The notes under the pieces were generated by a model. The model was given only the letters and a program-made list of their open reading frames with translations. It did not search any database and was not told the origin of the DNA. The position numbers and the translations under genes are program-made. This document shows positions 2,184 to 36,751 of a stretch of 64,000 nt of DNA, in pieces. Within the stretch, counting starts at the first letter, position 1. Each line of letters starts with the position of its first letter. Origin of the DNA: Candidatus Enterousia sp. (GTDB lineage: Bacteria > Pseudomonadota > Alphaproteobacteria > Rs-D84); contig JAZRBB010000002.1 of assembly GCA_045634865.1 (NCBI GenBank), forward strand, positions 197,162 through 261,161, written 5' to 3'.

Positions 2184-3839
2184 ATGAATTTATATAAATA
2201 TGTATCAGATGCGATAAACGATAAACTTGGACTTGTTGCCAATTTGGAGGTTCCAAAAAATCGTGATTTTGGTGATTTTTCTACAAATGCAGCAATGGTT
2301 GGTGCCAAGGCAGCAGGTAAAAATCCACGCGAATTAGCAAATGAAATCTTGCCAAAGTTGCAAGAACTAAATTTTGTTGAAGACGTTTCTGTCGCAGGTC
2401 CTGGATTTATAAACATTAAAATAAAAGATAATTTTATTCTGAATAACACAACAATACCTGAACACATTGCCACACAAAAATCATTAATGTTAGATTTAGA
2501 TTATGGCAGTTATAATATCGGCAAGGCATTACATATCGGTCATTTGCGTCCAATCGTTGTTGGCGATACTTTCAATCGCATTGCAAAATTCGTTGGACAC
2601 AAAACCAAAAGTTATAATCATGTTGGCGATTGGGGACGCCCAATGGGACTGATTATCGCATGGATTTTGGAATACGGTATGCCAAAAGACGCAGAAGAGT
2701 TTAACAAAATATACCCCGTATCTACAGCACGCGCAAACGAAGACGAAAAATGGCTGAACCATGCACGTGAAATAACATCTGAATTGCAACGTGGTAATCC
2801 TGAATATACCAAAATATATAACGAATTTATCCCTATGTCTTTGGCGCAAATGAACAGCGTTGTCCAAAGAATGAACGTTTTGCCTTTTGATATGATTATG
2901 GGCGAAAAGGGCGTATCTGAATATATCCCAGACGCAAAAGCAATTCTGGAAAACAAAAAATTGCTGGAACAATCTGATGGCGCTTTGGTTGTAAATATTC
3001 GTAATGAAGCAGATAACGCACCGATGCCACCATTGATTTTCCAAACGAATACAGGCGCAAACAGTTATGCGGCTGCAGATGTTGCTGCTATATATTACAG
3101 AAACAAAAATGACAATCCTGATAAAATTGTATACTTTACCGATTCGCGTCAGACGCTACATTTTCAACAACTGTTTCGTGCGGTAAAAATGGCGAATATC
3201 ACAACGGCAGATTTAATACACGTTGGCTTTGGAACAATAACAGGAATGGACGGAAAACCATTCAAAACGCGCGATGGGAATACCGCCAGTTTGTCTGATA
3301 TTTTAGACATGGTGGAAACGGCAGTTCGGGAACGTGTTGCCGAATCAAACAAATCACTTGATGACACAACAATCAACCAAATTGCATTGGCAGCAGTAAA
3401 GTTTAATGACTTGATTCACGACATAAAATCAGACTATGTTTTTGACCCAAAAGCCATCACTAGTTTTGAGGGACGCACAGGTCCATATATATTATATACT
3501 GCCGTTCGGTTAAATTCTGTATTAAAGCGTGCTGACACAACCATAGTAAAGCCAAAATCGTATGAATTATCATCTGATGAACGCAACATTTTGATTCAGA
3601 TTATGGATTTCGAACGTATGATATTGTCTGCTTGTGAAAATCATGCACCTGATTTATTGGCTAATTACACATACGATTTATGCCAACTGGCTAACAACTT
3701 CTATCACAACTGCCCAATTTTGCGCGATGATGTCGCACCAGAATTACGGGCAGGGCGTTTGTACATTGCAAAATTGGCCTTTGACACATTGAAAATCGCC
3801 ATAGATTTAATGGGATTGCAGATTCCAAATGAAATGTAA
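2184..3839 (+). CDS. argS: Arginyl-tRNA synthetase
   Basis: ArgS-like N-terminal domain, class I HIGH motif (ALHIGHLRP), typical length of 551 aa, C-terminus ending ...NEM. RBS AAAGAG upstream. Confidence 0.9.
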   Translation: MNLYKYVSDAINDKLGLVANLEVPKNRDFGDFSTNAAMVGAKAAGKNPRELANEILPKLQELNFVEDVSVAGPGFINIKIKDNFILNNTTIPEHIATQKSLMLDLDYGSYNIGKALHIGHLRPIVVGDTFNRIAKFVGHKTKSYNHVGDWGRPMGLIIAWILEYGMPKDAEEFNKIYPVSTARANEDEKWLNHAREITSELQRGNPEYTKIYNEFIPMSLAQMNSVVQRMNVLPFDMIMGEKGVSEYIPDAKAILENKKLLEQSDGALVVNIRNEADNAPMPPLIFQTNTGANSYAAADVAAIYYRNKNDNPDKIVYFTDSRQTLHFQQLFRAVKMANITTADLIHVGFGTITGMDGKPFKTRDGNTASLSDILDMVETAVRERVAESNKSLDDTTINQIALAAVKFNDLIHDIKSDYVFDPKAITSFEGRTGPYILYTAVRLNSVLKRADTTIVKPKSYELSSDERNILIQIMDFERMILSACENHAPDLLANYTYDLCQLANNFYHNCPILRDDVAPELRAGRLYIAKLAFDTLKIAIDLMGLQIPNEM

Positions 3840-15366: not shown

Positions 15367-15443
15367 TGGTGGATGTGGGCGGACTCGAACCGCCGACCCC
15401 TACGATGTGAACGTAGTGCTCTAACCAACTGAGCCACACATCC
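15367..15443 (-). tRNA. tRNA-Val (anticodon CAC)
   Basis: Reverse complement GGATGTGTGGCTCAGTTGGTTAGAGCACTACGTTCACATCGTAGGGGTCGGCGGTTCGAGTCCGCCCACATCCACCA. Cloverleaf with anticodon loop TTCACAT. Confidence 0.85.
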
Positions 15444-15602
15444 AAAAACCTAATAAAAAACCGCGTTTTGCGGTTATAATGCTTTTGTCCGTATTCGCTA
15501 TCGCTACGGCGAGACACTCAATTTTCTTAATTGTGCGCTTGTAATCACCCACAAAATTTTTTAATTTTGCGGGGCCCGAAGCGCGCGCAATAACGAAAAT
15601 CG

Positions 15603-15690
15603 GTGGTGGGGATAGTGGGACTTGAACCCACACGGTTGCAATAACCAAAGGATTTTAAGTCCTCAGCGTGTACCATTCCGCCATATCCCC
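15603..15690 (-). tRNA. tRNA-Leu (anticodon TAA), long variable arm
   Basis: Reverse complement GGGGATATGGCGGAATGGTA...GAGGACTTAAAATCCTT...GGGTTCAAGTCCCACTATCCCCACCA. Confidence 0.8.
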
Positions 15691-15741
15691 AGGACTTTTT
15701 TACACCCATTTGCCCTCAGAATACCTCTGATACAAAAAGGG

Positions 15742-15817
15742 TGGTGGAGCTGATGAGATTCGAACTCACGACCTCTGCATTGCGAACGCAGCGCTCTACC
15801 AACTGAGCTACAACCCC
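15742..15817 (-). tRNA. tRNA-Ala (anticodon CGC)
   Basis: Reverse complement GGGGTTGTAGCTCAGTTGGTAGAGCGCTGCGTTCGCAATGCAGAGGTCGTGAGTTCGAATCTCATCAGCTCCACCA. G3:U70 identity pair present. Confidence 0.85.
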
Positions 15818-15841
15818 ATGCTTCACATGCTTACAAACACA

Positions 15842-15928
15842 TGGTGGGCATAAGAAGACTCGAACTTCCAAGGTATTGCTACCACTAGTACCTGAAACTA
15901 GCGCGTCTACCAATTCCGCCATATGCCC
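15842..15928 (-). tRNA. tRNA-Leu (anticodon CAG), long variable arm
   Basis: Reverse complement GGGCATATGGCGGAATTGGTAGACGCGCTAGTTTCAGGTACTAGTGGTAGCAATACC..GGAAGTTCGAGTCTTCTTATGCCCACCA. Confidence 0.8.
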
Positions 15929-23637: not shown

Positions 23638-23988
23638 ATGTTGGCATTTACAAACGCAGACGAAAAAAAATCCCCAACAATTATTGGGGCAGGTTGCAAT
23701 CTGAAAGGTGACATAAATACCGATCATACCGTTCAGATTCATGGCACAGTTAAGGGAAATATTGTCGCTGAAACACTTGTAATTGGACGTGGTGGTATTG
23801 TTCATGGCAATATCAAGGCGCAAACTTTGTTTTTGCATGGAACCTTAGATGGCGACGCAGTAATAAATGTTGCGAACGTTTTCGCTAATGCAGAAATGTC
23901 AGGAACACTTTCTTATAAAACTCTGAATATAACATGCAATACTGGTCTGGAATGCAAATTATCTAAACGAAAGGAAGATACAAAATGA
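23638..23988 (+). CDS. Bactofilin (polymer-forming cytoskeletal protein, DUF583)
   Basis: Beta-helical repeats HGTVKGNIVAETLVIGRGGIVHGNIKAQTLFLHGTLDGDAVIN are typical of bactofilin. Confidence 0.75.
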   Translation: MLAFTNADEKKSPTIIGAGCNLKGDINTDHTVQIHGTVKGNIVAETLVIGRGGIVHGNIKAQTLFLHGTLDGDAVINVANVFANAEMSGTLSYKTLNITCNTGLECKLSKRKEDTK

Positions 23989-24434
23989 GCAACCAAGATA
24001 TCACAACCGTTTATTTGGCCGCAGACCATCGTGGGGTAGGGCTGAAATTATATCTGTATGAAATGTTGATGGCGGACGGTTATCATGTTGTCGATTTAGG
24101 GACAAATGATTTGAATACGCCTGTCGATTTTCCTGATATTGCAAAAAAATTGGCAGATGAAATGCTGGATGATTCACAATCACGCGGTATTTTAATTTGC
24201 GGAACAGGGGCTGGCATGGAAATTGCTGCGAATCGGTACCGTCATATTCGTGCATCACGTTGTGAAAGACCAGAACAGGCACGCGACGATCGTTTTCATG
24301 ACGACATAAACGTTTTAACTTTGGCTGCGGACGATATAGACATTGAAATTGCGTTTTTATGCGCACAGTCTTTTTTGGAAAGTCCATTTGACAACTGTGA
24401 AAAACGTATCCGCAGAATTGAAAAAATATCATAA
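23985..24434 (+). CDS. rpiB: Ribose-5-phosphate isomerase B (RpiB/LacA/LacB family)
   Basis: TVYLAADHRGVGLK...ILICGTGAGMEIAANR is the RpiB signature. 149 aa. 4-nt overlap with the bactofilin gene. Confidence 0.8.
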   Translation: MSNQDITTVYLAADHRGVGLKLYLYEMLMADGYHVVDLGTNDLNTPVDFPDIAKKLADEMLDDSQSRGILICGTGAGMEIAANRYRHIRASRCERPEQARDDRFHDDINVLTLAADDIDIEIAFLCAQSFLESPFDNCEKRIRRIEKIS

Positions 24435-24436
24435 AA

Positions 24437-24466
24437 AACACCCCGCAAAATGCGGGGGATTTTTTA
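24437..24466 (+). terminator. Rho-independent terminator after rpiB
   Basis: aaaaacaccccgcAAAAtgcgggggatttttt. Confidence 0.75.
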
Positions 24467-24474
24467 TATAGGGA

Positions 24475-25239
24475 TTATAAACTTTTGGCTTGTTCTCTTT
24501 TAATCATCTCTACTATATGATTTGTGGCTCTGCTGGCACGTTCTCTTTGCGAGGTCCAGTGATCATCCTCACGCTTAGGTGCCTTTTCTACACAGATACC
24601 AAGTAATTTATTTATCAAGTTAGCATTTGATTTTGCACGATACCAATCAGACTTTTCAACACTTTCCATAACCCAACTTAAACCATGTTTTATTTCGTCA
24701 GCATTTTTGTTTGCTTTTTTGTAATCTCGGGTTGCTATGATTTTTATCAAACCAATTGTATTCGAATCTATTGGTAATCCTGCCCCCAAAGCACCGGACA
24801 CATCATACAATGTTGCTTTTGGATTATAAGCCAATTTCTGTAACAATCTGTTACCCATTTCTTCTGGCAACCAAGACCACAAAGCTTTGAACATTATGTA
24901 TTCTTTGTCGTCCGACAACAAACACAACAAATCCATAACACGCTTACCGTATATTGTATGAACAAAATCAACTTTTTCTTTATCGGTTTTTTTCACATAT
25001 TCTGTTGCATTTTTCAGAACACTAAATGTTTTTATCAATTCTTTACAAGTTGATTGCAAACTTTCATCTTGTGGATTTTTTGCAACAATTTCATTAAAAG
25101 CGTCAAAGAAAATATTAATATTCAAATAATTCTTTGGGTTGTATGACGCAATAACTTTGTCAACCACAGCAATAAACACCTTGTCTTCCAAAGAATATGG
25201 TTTTCTGTGATACATTATAAAATCGTTTTGTTTATTCAT
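24475..25239 (-). CDS. Hypothetical cytoplasmic protein (254 aa from MNKQNDF)
   Basis: ORF with RBS AAGGGG 8 nt upstream of the ATG at 25239. No motif recognised. Confidence 0.5.
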   Translation of the reverse strand: MNKQNDFIMYHRKPYSLEDKVFIAVVDKVIASYNPKNYLNINIFFDAFNEIVAKNPQDESLQSTCKELIKTFSVLKNATEYVKKTDKEKVDFVHTIYGKRVMDLLCLLSDDKEYIMFKALWSWLPEEMGNRLLQKLAYNPKATLYDVSGALGAGLPIDSNTIGLIKIIATRDYKKANKNADEIKHGLSWVMESVEKSDWYRAKSNANLINKLLGICVEKAPKREDDHWTSQRERASRATNHIVEMIKREQAKSL

Positions 25240-25325
25240 AATTTTAACCCCTTGATTTTTTGGTTGCGTATAATATAGCCAAAATATTAAAAATGTCAAG
25301 ACTTATATTGTGTTTTTTTATAATA

Positions 25326-27759: not shown

Positions 27760-27925
27760 AATTTTTCCTTTTTGGTTTATATTCAGGTTTAACTGAGCGA
27801 TTTTATATTGAATTGCTTGAAAAATCAAGTAATTTTACACAAAACCGCAGGGGATTATTCACAAAAAAATCGCCGATACGTTATGTACCAGCGATAAAAT
27901 AACCAATATCCACAAATTGTATCAT

Positions 27926-28399
27926 TTATTCCATTTTGATACTTTCTATGTCTTTGCCTTCTTCGATATAAAAGGTTGCCTGTGCATTTTTATCTGACTT
28001 TAAGTTGGCTTTGCCCGAAACCTTACCAATTTCTATCACAGTTGGGGCAGGCCCATAACAACCGAAAGTCAATGGCAAAATCATTCCAAACAGCAAAAAC
28101 ACAGAACCCAGAATCATATTGCCTGGCTTGTTATCTTTCTTGATCGTCAAAAACAGCAAATCAATAAACGCCCATACTGCGGACACAATAATTCCGACAA
28201 TCGTCAAATCCAATATAATAAACAGCCAACCCTGACCATTTTTCCCTTGGGCAAACTTATGGGCACCGACAAAGCCGAATAGGGCGCATAGTATAATCAG
28301 CCTTGCATTTTCAGTATCAAACCAAGAACAATCATTGTTCTCATTACGAACTTGTTTTTTTGCATTACGTTTCATAAACTCTCTCCTTTTTACACGCAT
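27926..28399 (-). CDS. TM2 domain-containing small membrane protein
   Basis: ILCALFGFVGAHKFAQGKNGQGWLFIILDLTIVG matches the TM2 domain pattern (GxHxF..G). Two transmembrane helices. Confidence 0.5.
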   Translation of the reverse strand: MRVKRREFMKRNAKKQVRNENNDCSWFDTENARLIILCALFGFVGAHKFAQGKNGQGWLFIILDLTIVGIIVSAVWAFIDLLFLTIKKDNKPGNMILGSVFLLFGMILPLTFGCYGPAPTVIEIGKVSGKANLKSDKNAQATFYIEEGKDIESIKME

Positions 28400-29244
28400 A
28401 AATTATACATTTTTTCACCCCAAAAAGCAAGTAATAGTTCGAGAACCAATTCTCCCTTTGGAGGGAGTACCGGCAAAGCCGGGGAGGGAGGGGAACTCAA
28501 AAAAAACTTTGATAGAAAAAATCCGATAAATATGTCAACAAGCGATTTATTTAACGAAAAATAGGGGACAAAGCGTCAAAAAAGCGTCGCAAACCTGCAG
28601 AAATCTAGGCTTTTTTTGCGATTTTGGGGACAAAATAGGGCACAAAACCCCAATTTTCAGCCATTTTGACCATTTTTTGATATTTTATGTAAAAATGCCT
28701 GTTTTATTATTAAATGCCCCGCACAACATAATTTATGGCACAAAAACGAAAACATAATAAAAAACAAAAAAATTATAAAAAATCAATTTTCAGAAAAACT
28801 TTTCAGATTTCCAATTTAACAAAACTTTATACAGCCACAAACACCCAGAAAACCGCCACTCTTTAGTATTTATGCAAAATTTGATATGAAACACAAATCG
28901 CCCCAGCCCGCACAAATCCGCAAAAAAAAATAATGATTGAATATATAAACCACATTCTTAATCGATTCTCTGCGATGTAAACATATAAACATACGATTGG
29001 AAACATTATAAGCCCAAAAACGCAATCAATTTTCAGCGACCTGAACCTATGATTATACAGTTAAATACAATCAGCAGGCTGAAAAATTCAACACACCAAA
29101 CCACCACAAAATCTGAACGAGATAAACATATAGATATATGATTGAAAACATTTATCTGGCTGATATCTGGCTGAAAATAAACCCATAATATGTGCCAACA
29201 AAGTTTGTTTATGTGCACCAGCATATACATTATATATCAATGTG

Positions 29245-29342
29245 TTATATTATGTATAGTTGTGTATGCAACAGCATATGATTGTTGTTATATTATGTAT
29301 AGTTTAGGAGTCCCCCCAGACGACTAAACTATACATAATATA
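29245..29342. repeat. 17-bp perfect inverted repeat (tatattatgtatagttt / aaactatacataatata) with a 20-nt loop aggagtccccccagacgact, plus an upstream direct copy of one arm
   Basis: Read directly: arms at 29289-29305 and 29326-29342. Extra direct copy at 29245-29261. Confidence 0.8.
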
Positions 29343-29396
29343 CATTATGCGCCTTTTATATATTCATCTATCAACACACCACTCCATAAAAAAACA

Positions 29397-29428
29397 CCGC
29401 CCGAAAAAGGACGGTGTTTTTTTCAATT
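29397..29428. terminator. Bidirectional rho-independent terminator (also serves mscL)
   Basis: aaaaaaacaccgcccGAAAAAggacggtgttttttt. Confidence 0.65.
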
Positions 29429-29443
29429 ACAACACATTAATTA

Positions 29444-29995
29444 TTATATTTTATTTGCGACTTTCTTTGCAACCTTGGTCACATTTAGAACTTTGCTTTT
29501 CAGATTTTTCAATCCTTTGGCCAAATCAGTCTCTTCTGCTGGCCCTATTTTTTCAGGTTTTACCGCAGAACAACAAAACGGACATTTCTTTGCTAACTTA
29601 CTGATTGATTGCTGGCAATACGGACACGCACGTGTTGTCACAGGCGCTTTGCTGCGCGCAGAATTCACAACCTTTACAAAAATAAATATCGCAACCATTG
29701 TTATAATAAAACTGATAACAGTATTCAGAAACGTCCCAATGTTCAATGTAGTTGCACCCGCAGCCTGAGCAGCAGCAATCGTTGTGTAATGCGCCCCTGC
29801 TTCACCACCACCAAGCACATAAAACCATTGTGAAAAATCAACATTACCCACCAAAAGCCCCACAGGTGGCATAATAACATCTTTGACCAAAGAATTAACA
29901 ACACTGGTCATCACAGACCCAACGATGATACCGACAGCCATATCAATCGCACTGCCCTTGTTAATAAATACCTTGAATTCTTTAACTATTTTCAT
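29444..29995 (-). CDS. mscL: Large-conductance mechanosensitive channel MscL with a C-terminal Cys4 zinc-ribbon extension
   Basis: The first ~115 aa align to MscL (MKIVKEFKVFINKGSAIDMAVGIIVGS...IMPPVGLL...). The C-terminal ~65 aa contain CPYCQQSISKLAKKCPFCC. Confidence 0.85.
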   Translation of the reverse strand: MKIVKEFKVFINKGSAIDMAVGIIVGSVMTSVVNSLVKDVIMPPVGLLVGNVDFSQWFYVLGGGEAGAHYTTIAAAQAAGATTLNIGTFLNTVISFIITMVAIFIFVKVVNSARSKAPVTTRACPYCQQSISKLAKKCPFCCSAVKPEKIGPAEETDLAKGLKNLKSKVLNVTKVAKKVANKI

Positions 29996-33164: not shown

Positions 33165-33345
33165 AAGTTCCCCACCCATGGCGGGGTGGCACGAAGTGCC
33201 GGGGCGGGTATTCTGGTGTATTCGTAATAACGAACGGGTGGAACAAAACTTTATCCACCCCTCCCCGTCTTGATGTTCGCTATGCTCTCATCAATCCACC
33301 CCGCCCAAGGCGGGGAACTTACTCTCATTCTTGAAACACCTCCTT
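33165..33345. repeat. GC-rich palindromic element, copy A (homologous to 59250-59425)
   Basis: Shared blocks cccatggcgggg, gggtattcYggtgt, gaacg..tggaacaa, cccctcYccgtcttg, caatccacccc. Internal palindromes ccccRcccatggcgggg and gggtgg..ccaccc. Confidence 0.7.
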
Positions 33346-33430: not shown

Positions 33431-34525
33431 TTATCTGCGCATACCGACAGTAAATTCATCGCCCCAATCAGCAATCTTTTGTCCACCAACCGTGCAATTC
33501 AATGCGTCAAACCCTTTTTCAACCTGACTTTTCTTGATAAGAACACCAGACACAACACCACCGACAGTTCCTAATACTACACCCGCGGTCAAGTCAGATG
33601 CCAAGCGAACACCATTGAAAGAGCCATCTGCATTTTTCCAAACACTTTTATCAGAATCCACTTTGCTGAAAAACTCTTTCAATCTTGCATGTGCCGCGCT
33701 AATTTTTTTAGAATCAGTATTTGCATTTTTATCTGTATCAGCCACAACACGAGCACTTGATGTATCAGGTGTTTCCACAGAAACATCACTAAAATTGACA
33801 GATGCTATCGAAGTCCCTTTACATATACTGTCAATTTTATCTTTATATTTAAGCTCTATTTTTCTGGCTATTTTTTCTGCATCGTCATTTTTATCAATTT
33901 TAAGATTATCTACCCTGAAAGAGCCGGTCTTTCCGTTATCACACCTAACTGTGATATCGCCTACAAATTCACAATCGCCATTTTCACACACTGTCCCCTG
34001 GGGAACATTACACGTTTCACAAAAACATCCGACAAAAGCTTTACCACCACTCATTTTGACAACACTGGTTGGTTTTAGCATTTTGTTAGCCTCAATATAA
34101 TCTACAATCTTTGGTTTACAAATTCCGTCACCAGCACAATTCTTTTCACATTTTTTCATTGCTTCTGCTTCTGAATAACAATAGCCTAAAATACGCGCAT
34201 TTTGGGTTTTAGAAACATCATATTTGGTTTCAAACACCAATGGCATTACTTGACCATCAGGACACTTTCTAGCAACGCAACGCAATTCACCACTATTAAA
34301 TTTTTTGCAAACACCGTCTTGCCCTGCACCATTTCCATCTTGCTCACAATCCTGGTCTACTTTTTTACAAGTAGGTTTTAATTCAACTTTTTTGTATTTA
34401 ATCCATGGACAAACATCATCATCATTTGATGTCAAACCAGATTGCACAGTTTCTGCATTGGAATCCTGGGCGACAACGCCACCAAATATAACCATCACAG
34501 ACAAAATAGAAATAAACTTCTTCAT
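33431..34525 (-). CDS. Hypothetical secreted Cys-rich protein with conserved C-terminal module (shared with 34675-36675)
   Basis: Signal peptide MKKFISILSVMVIFGGVVAQ. Many Cys. The C-terminal ~85 aa are nearly identical to the paralog downstream. Confidence 0.65.
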   Translation of the reverse strand: MKKFISILSVMVIFGGVVAQDSNAETVQSGLTSNDDDVCPWIKYKKVELKPTCKKVDQDCEQDGNGAGQDGVCKKFNSGELRCVARKCPDGQVMPLVFETKYDVSKTQNARILGYCYSEAEAMKKCEKNCAGDGICKPKIVDYIEANKMLKPTSVVKMSGGKAFVGCFCETCNVPQGTVCENGDCEFVGDITVRCDNGKTGSFRVDNLKIDKNDDAEKIARKIELKYKDKIDSICKGTSIASVNFSDVSVETPDTSSARVVADTDKNANTDSKKISAAHARLKEFFSKVDSDKSVWKNADGSFNGVRLASDLTAGVVLGTVGGVVSGVLIKKSQVEKGFDALNCTVGGQKIADWGDEFTVGMRR

Positions 34526-34674: not shown

Positions 34675-36675
34675 TTATCTGCGCAGACCGACACTGAATT
34701 CATCACCCCAATCAGCAACTTTCTGCCCATTAATGGTGCAATTCAAAGCATCAAATCCTTTTTCAACTTGGCTTTTCTTGATTAACACACCAGATACAAC
34801 ACCACCAACCGTGCCCAATACTACACCCGCAGTCAAATCAGATGCCAAGCGCACACCATTGAATGAACCATCTGCATTTTTCCAAACACTTTTATCAGAA
34901 TTCACTTTGCTGAAAAACGCATCAAGATTTGACTTTGCCTTGGTTAATCGCTCTACTTTTCTGCGTTGTTCTTCGGCATCTTCTTGTTTTGGCAGTTTGT
35001 CTGCGTCATCATCTTGGATGTCATTTGAACAATTCTTATCTGCCAATTTCTTTGCCATATCTGCATTACCTGCAAATTTTTTATTAAAGTCTGCACAAGT
35101 AAGCCCATTTAGATCTTCCTTGCTCAAATTGATTTCCATACTGATTCCTTTGGAACAAGCAATCGTATATTTACACCCAGCAACAACATCAGACTTTTCA
35201 ACACATCTTGCAGCATTCCAAGTCTTAGTATCATCAGGCAACTGTGTTTCAGGAACAACACAATAACAACTACCATTATCTATATCACCAGTCCATTTTG
35301 TGTTTTTACCTGCTTTACAACACGCTAAACGTTTAGGATGTCCAGCATATAAATCATTACAAGTTTTCTTTGCACCCGGCTGTTCGTTATCTGGTTGTTC
35401 ATTTTTCGGTGTCGTCTTCTTGGCATTAGGATCAGGAACACAATCATTATTTTCCCATTTCATACCAGGATCTATACATCTCCATTTCCAACATGGTACA
35501 GTATGTCCGTTTTCCGTTTCCCAAAATGCAACAGGTTCATAATGAGCACCCTTTGCAGGAAAATTATACTTGACACCTCCTTCCTTGCACCAGCGAAGTT
35601 CTGGATCAGACCAATCATCATCCATTCCTTTGCCTTTCCATCCTTGATCCGTCTTATATACCCCACCCATAGGCCCTTTTTGTACACAATAATTGATATA
35701 ACCAAATTTATTACTGTGTATAGCGCGACCAATAGCCAGATTTTCCGTATAAGGCCCCATCAAAGCAGCATTTCCATCCGTAACATTACAACAATGTGTC
35801 CACTGCGGGTAAACATCGCTTTTTACACAATCAGACTGAGAAGCAACACGGGTCAGCATTAAACCACCACCAATCGCCGCACCAACACCAATTGCAACAC
35901 CATATCCAACTTGGCCGGCCATAGGAATCGCATTCAACGCCATTGCTATACCCCCCGCAGCCTTTGCGCCCCCCACAGCACCTTTAAATACACCAGACGC
36001 ACCAACTTCACCCTCTTCAAGGAAAGTATTTTTTACATCGTCTAAACCCTCTTTCTCAAGCATCAAACCCATACCAACTTGCAATGCCTGTCCAGCTGTT
36101 ATTTTCCCCACACCCTCATAACCAATCTTCTGTGCGATTCCACCAGTACCACCACCTGCCGCACCGGCACCAGATGCACCACCTGCTGTACCACCGCTCA
36201 TACGCTCTTTGGCTATTTTTTCAGCATATTTATTTGCTTTATCCAATTCTTCTAACTTATATGTTTTTATATTCTCACCTTTTGCACTAATTTGATTACC
36301 TGCTTGATCATAAAATCTATTTCCTTTCTTTGTTAATTTTTCCATGGCACCCGTTTCTCTGTTAACACCCCAATGAGTATTTGTAGCTGCAGTATTTGCA
36401 CTTGGCGTCGCAGAGGGTGTTGAATTTGGTATTGACGGTTCCAATTTAGGAGTAAGATTTTTAGTAAAGTCTGGGTCTATAAGATCCGCCTCTTTTATTG
36501 CAGAACCCATTTTATCTACGAATTTGCCCTCTGGAGTCATATACACGTCTCTTAAATAATTTTCGCCATCTGTCGAGGGTGCATAATATTTTGTTAACTG
36601 CCAATCTGAAACAGCAGACACAGCAGGACTAATTCCAAACACAATTACAGATAACATAAAAAGTATTTTTTTCAT
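34675..36675 (-). CDS. Hypothetical secreted protein with a Gly-rich glycine-zipper region, Cys-rich domain and conserved C-terminal module
   Basis: Signal peptide MKKILFMLSVIVFGISPAVSA (start at 36675, RBS AGAAGGGA). GGTAGGASGAGAAGGGTGG...GVAIGVGAAIGGG region. C-terminus paralogous to 33431-33700. Confidence 0.65.
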   Translation of the reverse strand: MKKILFMLSVIVFGISPAVSAVSDWQLTKYYAPSTDGENYLRDVYMTPEGKFVDKMGSAIKEADLIDPDFTKNLTPKLEPSIPNSTPSATPSANTAATNTHWGVNRETGAMEKLTKKGNRFYDQAGNQISAKGENIKTYKLEELDKANKYAEKIAKERMSGGTAGGASGAGAAGGGTGGIAQKIGYEGVGKITAGQALQVGMGLMLEKEGLDDVKNTFLEEGEVGASGVFKGAVGGAKAAGGIAMALNAIPMAGQVGYGVAIGVGAAIGGGLMLTRVASQSDCVKSDVYPQWTHCCNVTDGNAALMGPYTENLAIGRAIHSNKFGYINYCVQKGPMGGVYKTDQGWKGKGMDDDWSDPELRWCKEGGVKYNFPAKGAHYEPVAFWETENGHTVPCWKWRCIDPGMKWENNDCVPDPNAKKTTPKNEQPDNEQPGAKKTCNDLYAGHPKRLACCKAGKNTKWTGDIDNGSCYCVVPETQLPDDTKTWNAARCVEKSDVVAGCKYTIACSKGISMEINLSKEDLNGLTCADFNKKFAGNADMAKKLADKNCSNDIQDDDADKLPKQEDAEEQRRKVERLTKAKSNLDAFFSKVNSDKSVWKNADGSFNGVRLASDLTAGVVLGTVGGVVSGVLIKKSQVEKGFDALNCTINGQKVADWGDEFSVGLRR

Positions 36676-36751
36676 GATTTTTTCCCTTCTTTTCAATTTA
36701 TTCATGTATCTTATTTTATCATAACACACACACTAAAAAAAGCGTTTTTTA

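What the first reader, a model, noticed from the sequence alone, without database searches (positions are those of the whole stretch)
28400..29443. About 1 kb ORF-free region with a GC-rich double hairpin, a 17-bp perfect inverted repeat with a C6 loop, and a terminator
No ORF of 60 aa or more occurs on either strand between 28400 and 29443, which is unusual in an otherwise gene-dense window. The region contains ctccctttggagggag and ccggcaaagccgg hairpins (28450-28495). It has scattered tttcagc/gctgaaa motifs. It has a 17-bp perfect palindrome, tatattatgtatagttt[aggagtccccccagacgact]aaactatacataatata (29289-29342), with an extra direct copy of one arm at 29245-29261. An intrinsic terminator lies at 29397-29428. 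The region could host one or more small RNAs, a decayed pseudogene, or a protein-binding operator.
Basis: seen in the sequence. Interest (0 to 1): 0.55.

Follow-up and report, generated by a model that had tools for sequence, protein, structure and literature searches.

The report
Chromosome dif site with extra XerD half-sites
The "17-bp palindrome" is the chromosome's dif site, where the XerC/XerD recombinases separate joined sister chromosomes at the replication terminus; it is ordinary in kind but is flanked by extra, strictly conserved XerD-only half-sites that are not seen at the E. coli site.

Summary
The window comes from a gut or rumen alphaproteobacterium close to Candidatus Enterousia. 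The 1-kb gap lies between mscL and a TM2 gene followed by leuS, all on the minus strand.

**The dif site.**
- Its 20-nt core is identical to E. coli dif.
- It is unique in the window.
- It is nearly invariant in 25 related species, at the same position.
- GGGNAGGG (KOPS) motifs reverse strand exactly there: 29 of 29 in relatives and 6 of 7 in the window.
- In one relative a Microviridae prophage sits between a dif/attP hybrid site and dif.

**The extra half-sites.** The other palindrome arm and its direct copy are exact XerD-arm half-sites with no XerC arm. Such half-sites occur in 22 of 25 relatives, and their outer end always faces dif. They are invariant while their flanks are about 41% identical. 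E. coli has none.

**The rest of the gap.**
- Conserved non-coding blocks with no RNA or coding signal.
- One block is an iteron-motif-iteron module like those in plasmid and phage origin regions.
- A lineage-specific TM2 cassette begins with the GC hairpins.

**Verdict.** This is a known kind of site (dif) in a new variant.

The parts
29328..29355 (-). dif site: XerC arm AAGGCGCATAA (29345-29355), central TGTATA (29339-29344), XerD arm TTATGTATAGT (29328-29338)
   Evidence: The 20-nt core matches the E. coli dif core exactly and is unique in the window. The E. coli dif sequence is taken from PMC2731167 Table 1. There is one near-invariant copy in each of 25 relatives. KOPS polarity flips here.
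29289..29305 (+). Inverted XerD-only half-site 1 (TATA+TTATGTATAGT+TT; arm proper 29293-29303). There is no XerC arm.
   Evidence: The same site lies 23-44 nt from the dif XerD arm in L001, L002, L007, L009, L010, L011, L023 and L027.
29245..29261 (+).
   Evidence: Second copies also occur in L001, L002, L007 and L023.
29388..29423 (-). Intrinsic terminator of mscL, with T runs on both strands
   Evidence: A 36-nt match at 97% lies directly after mscL in L001.
29118..29152 (-). Conserved block C, copy 1 (AATCATATATCTATATG...); binding factor unknown
   Evidence: Repeat family D1. The block lies about 290 nt from dif in 13 relatives.
28973..29007 (-). Conserved block C, copy 2 (AATCGTATGTTTATATG-N7-TCGC-N4-GAATCGATT). 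It holds two short palindromes, CATATA-TT-TATATG and AATCGATT.
   Evidence: It was not found in viral contigs.
28838..28922 (-). Two degenerate copies of the motif GGCGG(A/T)TTTCTGCGG(G/T)TTTG, at 28903-28922 and 28838-28857
   Evidence: the motif occurs only in the dif zone of Enterousia loci, with 0 hits in 497 kb of unrelated loci.
28730..28800 (.). AT-rich tract that precedes block B
   Evidence: Read from the sequence. A similar tract is present in L020.
28553..28676 (-). Conserved block B: iteron CCCTATTTT (28632-28640), a degenerate central motif (about 28588-28610), and a second iteron CCCTATTTT (28558-28566)
   Evidence: Aligned in 11 loci. No RNA structure. The iteron is about 12-fold enriched in the dif zone, and pairs are 74 nt apart. 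The same central motif sits between iterons in plasmid and phage origin-like regions.
28450..28495 (.). GC-rich double hairpin at the 5' edge of a lineage-specific cassette. It contains GGGGAGGG (28481-28488, + strand), oriented toward dif.
   Evidence: Synteny with L001 ends at 28512.
27835..28512 (-). Cassette absent from the 26 relatives tested: the hairpins, a plausible promoter TTGCTT-17-TATAAT (28400-28431), a TM2-domain gene (27926-28399) and its terminator (27869-27895)
   Evidence: The leuS promoter is retained downstream of the cassette.

Best explanation
The 1-kb gap is the dif locus at the replication terminus of this Enterousia-like alphaproteobacterium.

**Shown by sequence and comparison**
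- A canonical 28-bp XerC/XerD site lies at 29328-29355 on the minus strand.
- FtsK-orienting GGGNAGGG motifs converge on this site.
- Microviruses integrate at the orthologous site in relatives.

**Inferred from established Xer/FtsK biology**
- XerC and XerD bind the two arms.
- FtsK, guided by the polar motifs, stops at XerCD-dif and activates XerD.
- One crossover then resolves a chromosome dimer at cell division.

**The extra XerD half-sites**
- The second palindrome arm and its direct copy are XerD-arm half-sites without XerC arms. They are under purifying selection across the genus, and their outer end always faces dif.
- I infer, with probability about 0.7, that they bind XerD monomers.
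- Their role is less certain. They may work as orientation-dependent FtsK roadblocks that keep the motor at dif. Alternatively they may be XDS-like sites where XerD unloads SMC. I give roughly 0.25-0.3 to each.

**The rest of the gap**
- It is conserved non-coding DNA that probably binds proteins.
- It includes an iteron-motif-iteron module of plasmid/phage origin type.
- It ends in a lineage-specific TM2 gene cassette.
For: **Sequence match**
- The site matches E. coli dif (GGTGCGCATAATGTATATTATGTTAAAT; PMC2731167) at 22 of 28 positions. The 20-nt core is identical and unique in the 64-kb window.
- The XerD arm differs by one base from the XerD-arm end (TTATGTAAAGT) of the Caulobacter dif listed in that paper's table.

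**Conservation**
- There is one copy per locus in 25 relatives. The arms are nearly invariant. Variation is in the central region (TGTATA, TTTATA or GATATA) plus one C/T position in the XerC arm.
- The site is always in the intergenic region downstream of mscL.

**KOPS and gene orientation**
- In the window GGGNAGGG occurs 7 times against 1.7 expected. It is on the + strand left of dif and on the - strand right of it, with one exception.
- In relatives it is 14 of 14 on the + strand to the left and 15 of 15 on the - strand to the right. Several sites lie antisense inside leuS, so the flip does not follow gene strand.
- Gene orientation converges at about 24.4 kb, 5 kb from dif.

**Use by Xer-exploiting mobile elements (IMEX)**
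- L024 carries a Microviridae prophage (major head protein 8e-109, pilot protein, Rep). It lies between attL (XerC arm plus TTTA, then unrelated sequence) and a complete dif.
- L005 has a hybrid site next to a Rep fragment.
- Free microvirus contigs carry the XerC arm and central region with a degenerate XerD arm.

**Half-sites**
- Exact 11-mers TTATGTATAGT occur only next to dif. There are 3 in the window, all within 90 nt. There are 1-3 per Enterousia locus and none in 52 unrelated loci.
- 23 exact right-hand copies are inverted and 6 left-hand copies are direct, so the outer end faces dif in all 29.
- The distal class is invariant over 13 nt in 11 species, while its flanks are 41% identical.
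- E. coli K-12 has no extra XerD arm within 20 kb either side of dif.

**Literature**
- XerD alone binds a dif half-site (KD about 10 nM) and blocks FtsK when approached on its outer face (PMC2800217).
- XerD at dif-like XDS sites unloads Smc-ScpAB in B. subtilis (cited in PMC11840125 and PMC11894783).
Against: - xerC, xerD, ftsK and smc are not among the window ORFs I screened, and the rest of the genome is not available.
- GC skew does not change sign at 29.3 kb. It follows gene strand, and the nearest sign change is 5-20 kb to the left.
- Position 25 of the site is T, whereas A is highly conserved in proteobacterial dif sites (PMC2731167).
- For the half-sites, each lineage has them on only one side of dif, which weakens a simple 'cage' model.
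- The half-site classes may represent only 3-5 independent origins, so the orientation rule has modest statistical weight.
- B. subtilis XDS sites are, from my memory of the paper (not held in the library), spread over the terminus region rather than clustered within 0.6 kb of dif.
- No binding or recombination experiment exists for this organism.
Confidence: 0.87

Rival explanations
1. The extra XerD arms, and much of the non-coding kilobase, are non-functional debris. They would come from repeated integration and excision of Xer-exploiting elements (IMEX), or from hairpin-templated duplication at a recombination hot spot.
For: - The dif neighbourhood clearly changes over time. Prophages and other genes are inserted on either side of dif in L001, L002, L005, L015, L019-21 and L024.
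- The 100 nt after dif differ by duplications of the 'loop plus arm' unit between the window, L001 and L007.
- Block B resembles plasmid and phage iteron regions.
Against: - IMEX attP sites and their scars keep the XerC arm and central region and have degenerate XerD arms. This is seen here in L005, L024 and viral contigs and in the literature (PMC7062461; PMC5357621). The chromosomal extras show the opposite pattern.
- The central+XerD-arm 17-mer is at chance level in viral contigs: 22 hits, of which only one is a real dif.
- The distal half-site is invariant in 11 species while its flanks are near random. An 11-13 nt repeat is too short for efficient gene conversion (my inference).
Confidence: 0.2
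2. The palindrome and neighbouring hairpins act at the RNA level, as one or more small RNAs or a structured 3' UTR or terminator.
For: - The hairpin is very stable.
- Several terminator-like hairpins occur in the gap in relatives.
- Transcription could not be measured.
Against: - No Rfam family matches at gathering thresholds, and only microRNA-type noise appears at E <= 10.
- The invariant unit extends 13 nt beyond the stem into the XerC arm.
- L004, L008 and L018 keep dif but have no inverted half-site within 150 nt.
- Equally invariant half-sites lie 290-550 nt away, where they cannot pair locally with dif.
- Block B has no consensus fold and no covariation.
Confidence: 0.04
3. The gap is a degraded protein-coding gene.
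For: Mechanical ORFs of 30-70 aa are present.
Against: - These ORFs have no Pfam hits at E <= 0.01.
- Frameshifting indels separate the window from L001 at 87% identity.
- The conserved stretch of block B reads in different frames in different species and holds a stop codon in the window.
- I did not run a full database blastx.
Confidence: 0.02
4. The gap is a replication origin: oriC, or a functional secondary origin. This is suggested by the AT-rich tract and the iteron-motif-iteron module.
For: - An AT-rich tract (28730-28800) is followed by paired iterons around a motif.
- The same motif sits in oriV-like regions of pGO128, Apa386Bp6 and a P4-like viral contig.
Against: - KOPS motifs converge on the site, and dif marks a terminus rather than an origin.
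- Genes on both sides run the same way, and the cumulative skew has no minimum here.
- No rep gene is present.
- By eye I saw no TTATCCACA-type DnaA boxes (not scanned formally).
Confidence: 0.03

Closest known systems
Proteobacterial chromosomal dif (E. coli dif; XerC/XerD/FtsK dimer resolution)
   Same: It is 28 bp, with 11-bp XerC and XerD arms around a 6-bp central region. The 20-nt core and the central TGTATA are identical to E. coli dif. It is intergenic, unique in the window, lies at the point where KOPS motifs converge, and is exploited by IMEX elements.
   Different: The outer XerC positions and three XerD-arm positions differ (TTATGTATAGT against TTATGTTAAAT). It is flanked by XerD-only half-sites, which E. 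coli lacks within 20 kb either side of dif.
B. subtilis XDS sites (XerD-specific, dif-like sites that unload Smc-ScpAB; Karaboja et al. 2021, as cited in PMC11840125 and PMC11894783)
   Same: They are dif-like sequences in the terminus region that offer a XerD arm without a working XerC partner.
   Different: The phylum is different. Here the sites cluster within about 0.6 kb of dif, on one side per lineage, with a fixed orientation. XerD binding and SMC unloading have not been tested. The primary paper could not be read.
XerD bound to a dif half-site as an orientation-dependent FtsK roadblock (E. coli, in vitro; PMC2800217)
   Same: The half-sites here have the same make-up as the substrates used in that work: a XerD arm plus 0-4 bp of central region.
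   Different: In E. coli this was an engineered substrate. Here the half-sites are natural and conserved, and their outer face points toward dif.
IMEX attachment sites (CTX, TLC, GGI, gokushovirus prophages)
   Same: Relatives L024 and L005 show classic integration of a microvirus at this dif. L024 has a 17-nt direct repeat covering the XerC arm and the start of the central region.
   Different: The window itself carries no IMEX. Its extra sites have perfect XerD arms and no XerC arm, which is the reverse of attP sites and their scars.
Iteron-type origin regions of small alphaproteobacterial plasmids (pGO128, Apa386Bp6) and P4-like phage ori/crr
   Same: Block B has paired short iterons around the motif GGCGG(A/T)TTTCTGCGG(G/T)TTTG, with an AT-rich tract beside it.
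   Different: No rep gene is adjacent. The module is chromosomal, next to dif, and conserved across species. The factor that binds the motif is unknown.

Membership tests
Chromosomal dif (XerC/XerD type) | 28-bp site: two 11-bp imperfect inverted arms around a 6-bp central region, matching the proteobacterial consensus | tested here: met
   AAGGCGCATAA-TGTATA-TTATGTATAGT. It matches E. coli dif at 22 of 28 positions and the 20-nt core is identical.
Chromosomal dif (XerC/XerD type) | Single copy per chromosome | tested here: inconclusive
   It is unique in the 64-kb window and occurs once in each of 25 relatives' 3-10 kb loci. Whole genomes are not available.
Chromosomal dif (XerC/XerD type) | Located at the replication terminus, at the junction of oppositely polarised sequence elements (KOPS, skew) | tested here: met
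   GGGNAGGG flips strand at the site: 6 of 7 in the window and 29 of 29 in relatives. Gene orientation converges 5 kb away. GC skew itself follows gene strand and does not flip exactly here.
Chromosomal dif (XerC/XerD type) | Conservation pattern: arms conserved, central region free to vary between species | tested here: met
   The XerD arm is invariant and the XerC arm varies at one position (C/T). The central region is TGTATA, TTTATA or GATATA.
Chromosomal dif (XerC/XerD type) | Cognate XerC and XerD recombinases and FtsK encoded in the genome | not testable with these tools
   None was found among the 20 window ORFs scanned against Pfam.
Chromosomal dif (XerC/XerD type) | Acts as a recombination substrate in vivo | tested here: met
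   The evidence is indirect and comes from relatives. A Microviridae prophage lies between an attL hybrid site and dif in L024, and L005 has a hybrid site. No experiment exists.
XDS-like XerD-only sites | XerD-binding arm present, XerC arm absent or degenerate | tested here: met
   The 17 nt upstream of every extra arm show no CATAA-type XerC arm.
XDS-like XerD-only sites | Located in the terminus region | tested here: met
   All lie within 23-550 nt of dif. The exceptions are one at +1364 and one displaced by a prophage.
XDS-like XerD-only sites | Bound by XerD independently of XerC; unloads Smc-ScpAB | not testable with these tools
   This needs ChIP-seq, Hi-C or in vitro binding.
IMEX attachment scar | XerC arm and central region like dif, XerD arm divergent | tested here: not met
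   The extras have perfect XerD arms and no XerC arm. Genuine attL and attP examples show the expected opposite pattern.
Known structured RNA (Rfam) | Match to a covariance model at its gathering score, or covariation in an alignment | tested here: not met

The most novel reading that the evidence does not exclude
In this alphaproteobacterial genus, dif comes with dedicated XerD-only accessory sites whose outer face always points at dif. They would be functional landing pads for XerD monomers. In one version they stop FtsK motors that overshoot dif. In the other they unload or stall SMC complexes, which would extend the B. subtilis XDS principle to Proteobacteria. In addition, the neighbouring motif GGCGG(A/T)TTTCTGCGG(G/T)TTTG, shared with plasmid and phage iteron origin regions, may mark an undescribed host DNA-binding factor that acts both at replicon origins and at the terminus.
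Probability: 0.3. Interest if true: 0.7.

Novelty: new variant of a known kind. Interest (0 to 1): 0.5.

Why it matters
- **Genome map:** locating dif fixes the replication terminus of an uncultured gut lineage known only from metagenome bins. It also shows that GGGNAGGG-type FtsK guidance operates there.
- **Phage hosts:** it identifies the integration site of resident microviruses, which helps assign hosts to gut Microviridae.
- **XerD half-sites:** these are the unusual part. If they bind XerD, they are a natural, compact arrangement for studying how XerD acts outside recombination (FtsK stoppage, SMC unloading). So far this is known from engineered E. coli substrates and from B. subtilis.
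- **Shared motif:** the motif common to the dif zone and to plasmid and phage origin-like regions is a lead to an unknown DNA-binding factor.

Tried and rejected
- **Rfam:** the whole window at gathering thresholds and the region at E <= 10 gave only tRNAs elsewhere and noise. Twelve viral loci that carry the shared motif had no family on it.
- **RNA structure of block B:** no fold and no covariation.
- **Pseudogene or small protein:** no Pfam hits, and frames are not conserved.
- **oriC:** rejected on KOPS convergence, gene orientation and skew.
- **IMEX-scar origin of the XerD arms:** rejected.
- **Exact-protein look-ups** of the TM2 and MscL proteins found nothing.
- **xerC/xerD in the window:** none among the 20 ORFs scanned.
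- **ZapT as the binder of blocks B and C:** no motif is known for it.
- **Block C in viral contigs:** no match.
- **Literature search for the shared motif sequence:** no paper.
- **Is the shared motif dif-linked on alphaproteobacterial chromids?** One hit was coding and chance-like. The other was an iteron-flanked intergenic site with no dif nearby, and no dif-like site lay near the motif in 55 viral loci.
- **Comparison by eye** of the motif with the sigma-54 (spacing is one base short), IHF, DnaA-box, CtrA and GANTC consensus sequences found no fit. This was not tested formally.
- **Karaboja et al. 2021** could not be read.

Full report
**1. The observation**

- The palindrome has arms at 29289-29312 and 29319-29342, 92% complementary over 24 nt, with a perfect 17-bp core.
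- A 19-nt exact direct copy of one arm lies 43 nt away (29243-29261 = 29286-29304).
- As single-stranded DNA the palindrome folds at -16.2 kcal/mol (z = -7.8). The terminator folds at -13.5 kcal/mol (z = -6.0). The two GC hairpins at 28450-28495 fold as described (z = -3.0).
- TTTCAGC/GCTGAAA is about 10-fold enriched in the region.

The "no ORF of 60 aa or more" statement is slightly wrong.
- A mechanical 65-aa ORF lies at 29033-29230 on the minus strand, and three others overlap the edges.
- None has a family hit.
- The 65-aa frame is broken by indels in the closest relative.

**2. Context**

- Genes on both sides are on the minus strand: aroK, mscL (29444-29995), the gap, a TM2-domain ORF (27926-28399) and leuS.
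- MscL homologues are named Candidatus Enterousia or Alphaproteobacteria bacterium and come from gut and rumen metagenome bins.
- A genome scan returned 28 Enterousia-type loci, L001-L027 and L030.
- In most of them mscL is followed by 920-1150 nt without a convincing gene, and then directly by leuS. None carries the TM2 gene.
- The long gap is therefore a conserved property of this genus.

**3. What is conserved**

- BLASTN and a multiple alignment of the gaps show that most of the sequence is free to vary.
- One stretch is identical in nearly all species: AAAAGGCGCATAATGTATATTATGTATAGTTTA. This is one palindrome arm plus the 13 nt beside it.
- It reads as a dif site: XerC arm AAGGCGCATAA, central region TGTATA and XerD arm TTATGTATAGT.
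- E. coli dif is GGTGCGCATAATGTATATTATGTTAAAT (PMC2731167 Table 1). The 20-nt core GCGCATAATGTATATTATGT is identical and occurs once in the window, at 29333-29352 on the minus strand.
- Twenty-five relatives have exactly one such site. The arms are almost invariant, and variation is concentrated in the central region. This is the pattern described for dif.

**4. Independent support for dif and the terminus**

*KOPS polarity*
- GGGNAGGG, the FtsK-orienting motif of E. coli and Vibrio (PMC5357621), occurs 7 times in the window against 1.7 expected.
- It lies on the + strand at 3748, 24034 and 28481. It lies on the - strand at 33259, 38900 and 53891. There is one exception at 59319.
- In the relatives the split is perfect: 14 of 14 on the + strand to the left of dif and 15 of 15 on the - strand to the right.
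- Several right-hand sites lie antisense inside leuS, so the flip is not a by-product of gene strand.

*Gene orientation and skew*
- Gene orientation changes from + to - at about 24.4 kb, 5 kb from the site.
- GC skew follows gene strand and does not flip exactly at dif. The dif survey reports offsets of hundreds of bases to tens of kilobases between dif and the skew maximum, so this is compatible.

*Integration by microviruses*
- In L024 a 4.4-kb Microviridae prophage (major head protein 8e-109, DNA pilot protein, replication initiator) lies between two sites.
- On one side is AAAAGGCGTATAATTTA followed by unrelated sequence. On the other is a complete dif.
- This is the signature of Xer-mediated integration, already known for microviruses in Bacteroidetes and Escherichia (PMC3091885; PMC7062461).
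- L005 has a dif hybrid with a foreign XerD side, next to a Rep fragment.
- Free microvirus contigs carry AAGGCGCATAATGTATATT followed by a degenerate XerD arm.

**5. The other palindrome arm**

*Distribution*
- The arm at 29289-29305 and its copy at 29245-29261 contain the exact XerD arm, with TATA of the central region in front and (for the first) TT behind. No XerC arm lies upstream.
- The 11-mer occurs three times in the 64-kb window, all within 90 nt.
- It occurs 1-3 times in each of 26 Enterousia loci, always beside dif where dif is within the locus, and never in 52 unrelated loci.

*Three position classes*
- Inverted copies lie 23-44 nt past the dif XerD arm. Some loci have a second copy 43-67 nt further on.
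- Inverted copies lie 480-550 nt past dif, just before the leuS promoter.
- Direct copies lie about 290 nt before dif.

*Orientation and selection*
- In all 29 exact copies the outer end of the arm faces dif.
- The distal class is invariant over 13 nt in 11 species, while its flanks are 41% identical. This indicates selection on the sequence itself rather than on hairpin formation.

*Why these are not IMEX scars*
- Real attP and attL sites keep the XerC arm and lose the XerD arm.
- The central+XerD-arm 17-mer is at chance level in viral contigs.

*Controls and literature*
- E. coli K-12 has no such copy within 20 kb either side of dif.
- In vitro, XerD alone binds a half-site with KD of about 10 nM. 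It blocks FtsK about 5-fold better when met on its outer face (PMC2800217).
- In B. subtilis, XerD at dif-like XDS sites unloads Smc-ScpAB.
- Either activity could explain conserved XerD-only sites. Neither can be tested here.

**6. The rest of the gap**

*Block C*
- Block C is AATCATATATTTATATG-N7-TCGC-N4-AAATCGATT. It lies about 290 nt from dif in 13 relatives and is present twice in the window.
- It holds two short palindromes. I found no match in viral contigs and have no assignment for it.

*Block B*
- Block B (28553-28676) is alignable in 11 loci. It has no consensus RNA fold or covariation and no conserved reading frame.
- Its core in relatives is AATGGCGGATTTCTGCGGGTTTGCGG, flanked by CCCTATT(T/C)T iterons 74 nt apart.
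- The motif (up to 4 mismatches) occurs 36 times in Enterousia loci. All copies lie in the intergenic zone that contains dif, some overlapping the mscL terminator. It occurs 0 times in 497 kb of unrelated loci.

*The same motif elsewhere*
- The exact 17-mer occurs in 55 viral contigs, usually between contig-specific iterons. One example lies next to P4-type TGTTCACC iterons and a primase-helicase gene.
- It also occurs in iteron-rich intergenic regions next to the rep-type genes of the small plasmids pGO128 and Apa386Bp6.
- It is not linked to dif in those replicons.
- I read block B as a plasmid/phage origin-type module. It could be a fixed relic or a landing site for an unidentified host factor.

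*The TM2 cassette*
- Synteny with the nearest relative ends at 28512.
- The GC hairpins, a plausible promoter, the TM2 gene and its terminator form a cassette of about 680 bp that the other species lack.
- The leuS promoter is retained downstream of it.

**7. Mechanism**

*Shown*
- A canonical dif site at the point where KOPS motifs converge.
- Use of the orthologous site by Xer-dependent mobile elements in relatives.
- XerD-only half-sites under selection, with a fixed polarity.

*Inferred*
- XerC and XerD bind dif.
- FtsK translocates toward it along the polar motifs, stops at XerCD-dif and activates XerD.
- One crossover then resolves a chromosome dimer at cell division.
- XerD monomers occupy the accessory half-sites. 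I put this at about 0.7.
- These monomers act either as FtsK backstops or as XDS-like SMC unloaders. I put each at about 0.25-0.3. The alternative is that they have no function.

**8. Verdict**

The finding is real and explained. It is a member of a very well-known class, which lowers surprise. However, it comes in an arrangement I could not find described for Proteobacteria, and it is accompanied by an unexplained motif shared with replicon origin regions. My scores are interest 0.5 and novelty "new variant of a known kind".

Noticed in passing
L024:5873-10302: An intact-looking Microviridae prophage of about 4.4 kb (major head protein, pilot protein, Rep) is integrated at the Enterousia dif. 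It is flanked by a 17-nt direct repeat that covers the XerC arm and the start of the central region.
   Followed up: yes
L137, L142 (viral contigs); also L103, L106, L110, L136, L138: Free microvirus-sized contigs carry AAGGCGCATAATGTATATT followed by a degenerate XerD arm. These are candidate attP sites, and they suggest hosts with this dif type.
   Followed up: partly
window 28838-28922 and 28588-28610; L016, L019-21, L030 about +390 to +600 from dif; L214:1400-1620; L215:1900-1990: The motif GGCGG(A/T)TTTCTGCGG(G/T)TTTG is confined to the dif zone in Enterousia loci. It also sits between iterons in the origin-like regions of plasmids pGO128 and Apa386Bp6 and in many viral contigs. Its binding factor is unknown.
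   Followed up: partly
window 29444-29995 (-): MscL carries a C-terminal Cys-rich extension of about 50 aa (CPYC...CPFCC). The extended length of about 183 aa is kept in more than 100 homologues, and one homologue is annotated with a zinc-ribbon domain (PF13248).
   Followed up: no
window 33431-34525 and 34675-36729 (-); L001:6750-8064: Paralogous Cys-rich secreted proteins share a nearly identical C-terminal region and have no Pfam hit. In L001 the gene that takes the place of the TM2/leuS segment to the right of the dif zone is also Cys-rich.
   Followed up: no
window 23985-25299: Gene strand changes from + to - between rpiB (23985-24434) and an unknown 274-aa ORF (24475-25299). This convergence point lies 5 kb from dif.
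   Followed up: partly
L020:5703-5873 (also L019, L021): A 56-aa predicted membrane ORF with a ribosome-binding site lies between the left XerD half-site and dif in one sub-lineage.
   Followed up: no
window 15367-15928 (-): A cluster of four tRNA genes: Val, Leu, Ala and Leu.
   Followed up: no
window 51729-52712 (-): An ankyrin-repeat protein (327 aa), which is uncommon in free-living bacteria and may point to host association.
   Followed up: no
L100:89-125: A 37.8-kb viral contig with a terminase gene has an Enterousia-type dif about 100 nt from the start of the fetched stretch (central region TTTATA). It may be a prophage boundary or host DNA flanking the prophage.
   Followed up: no
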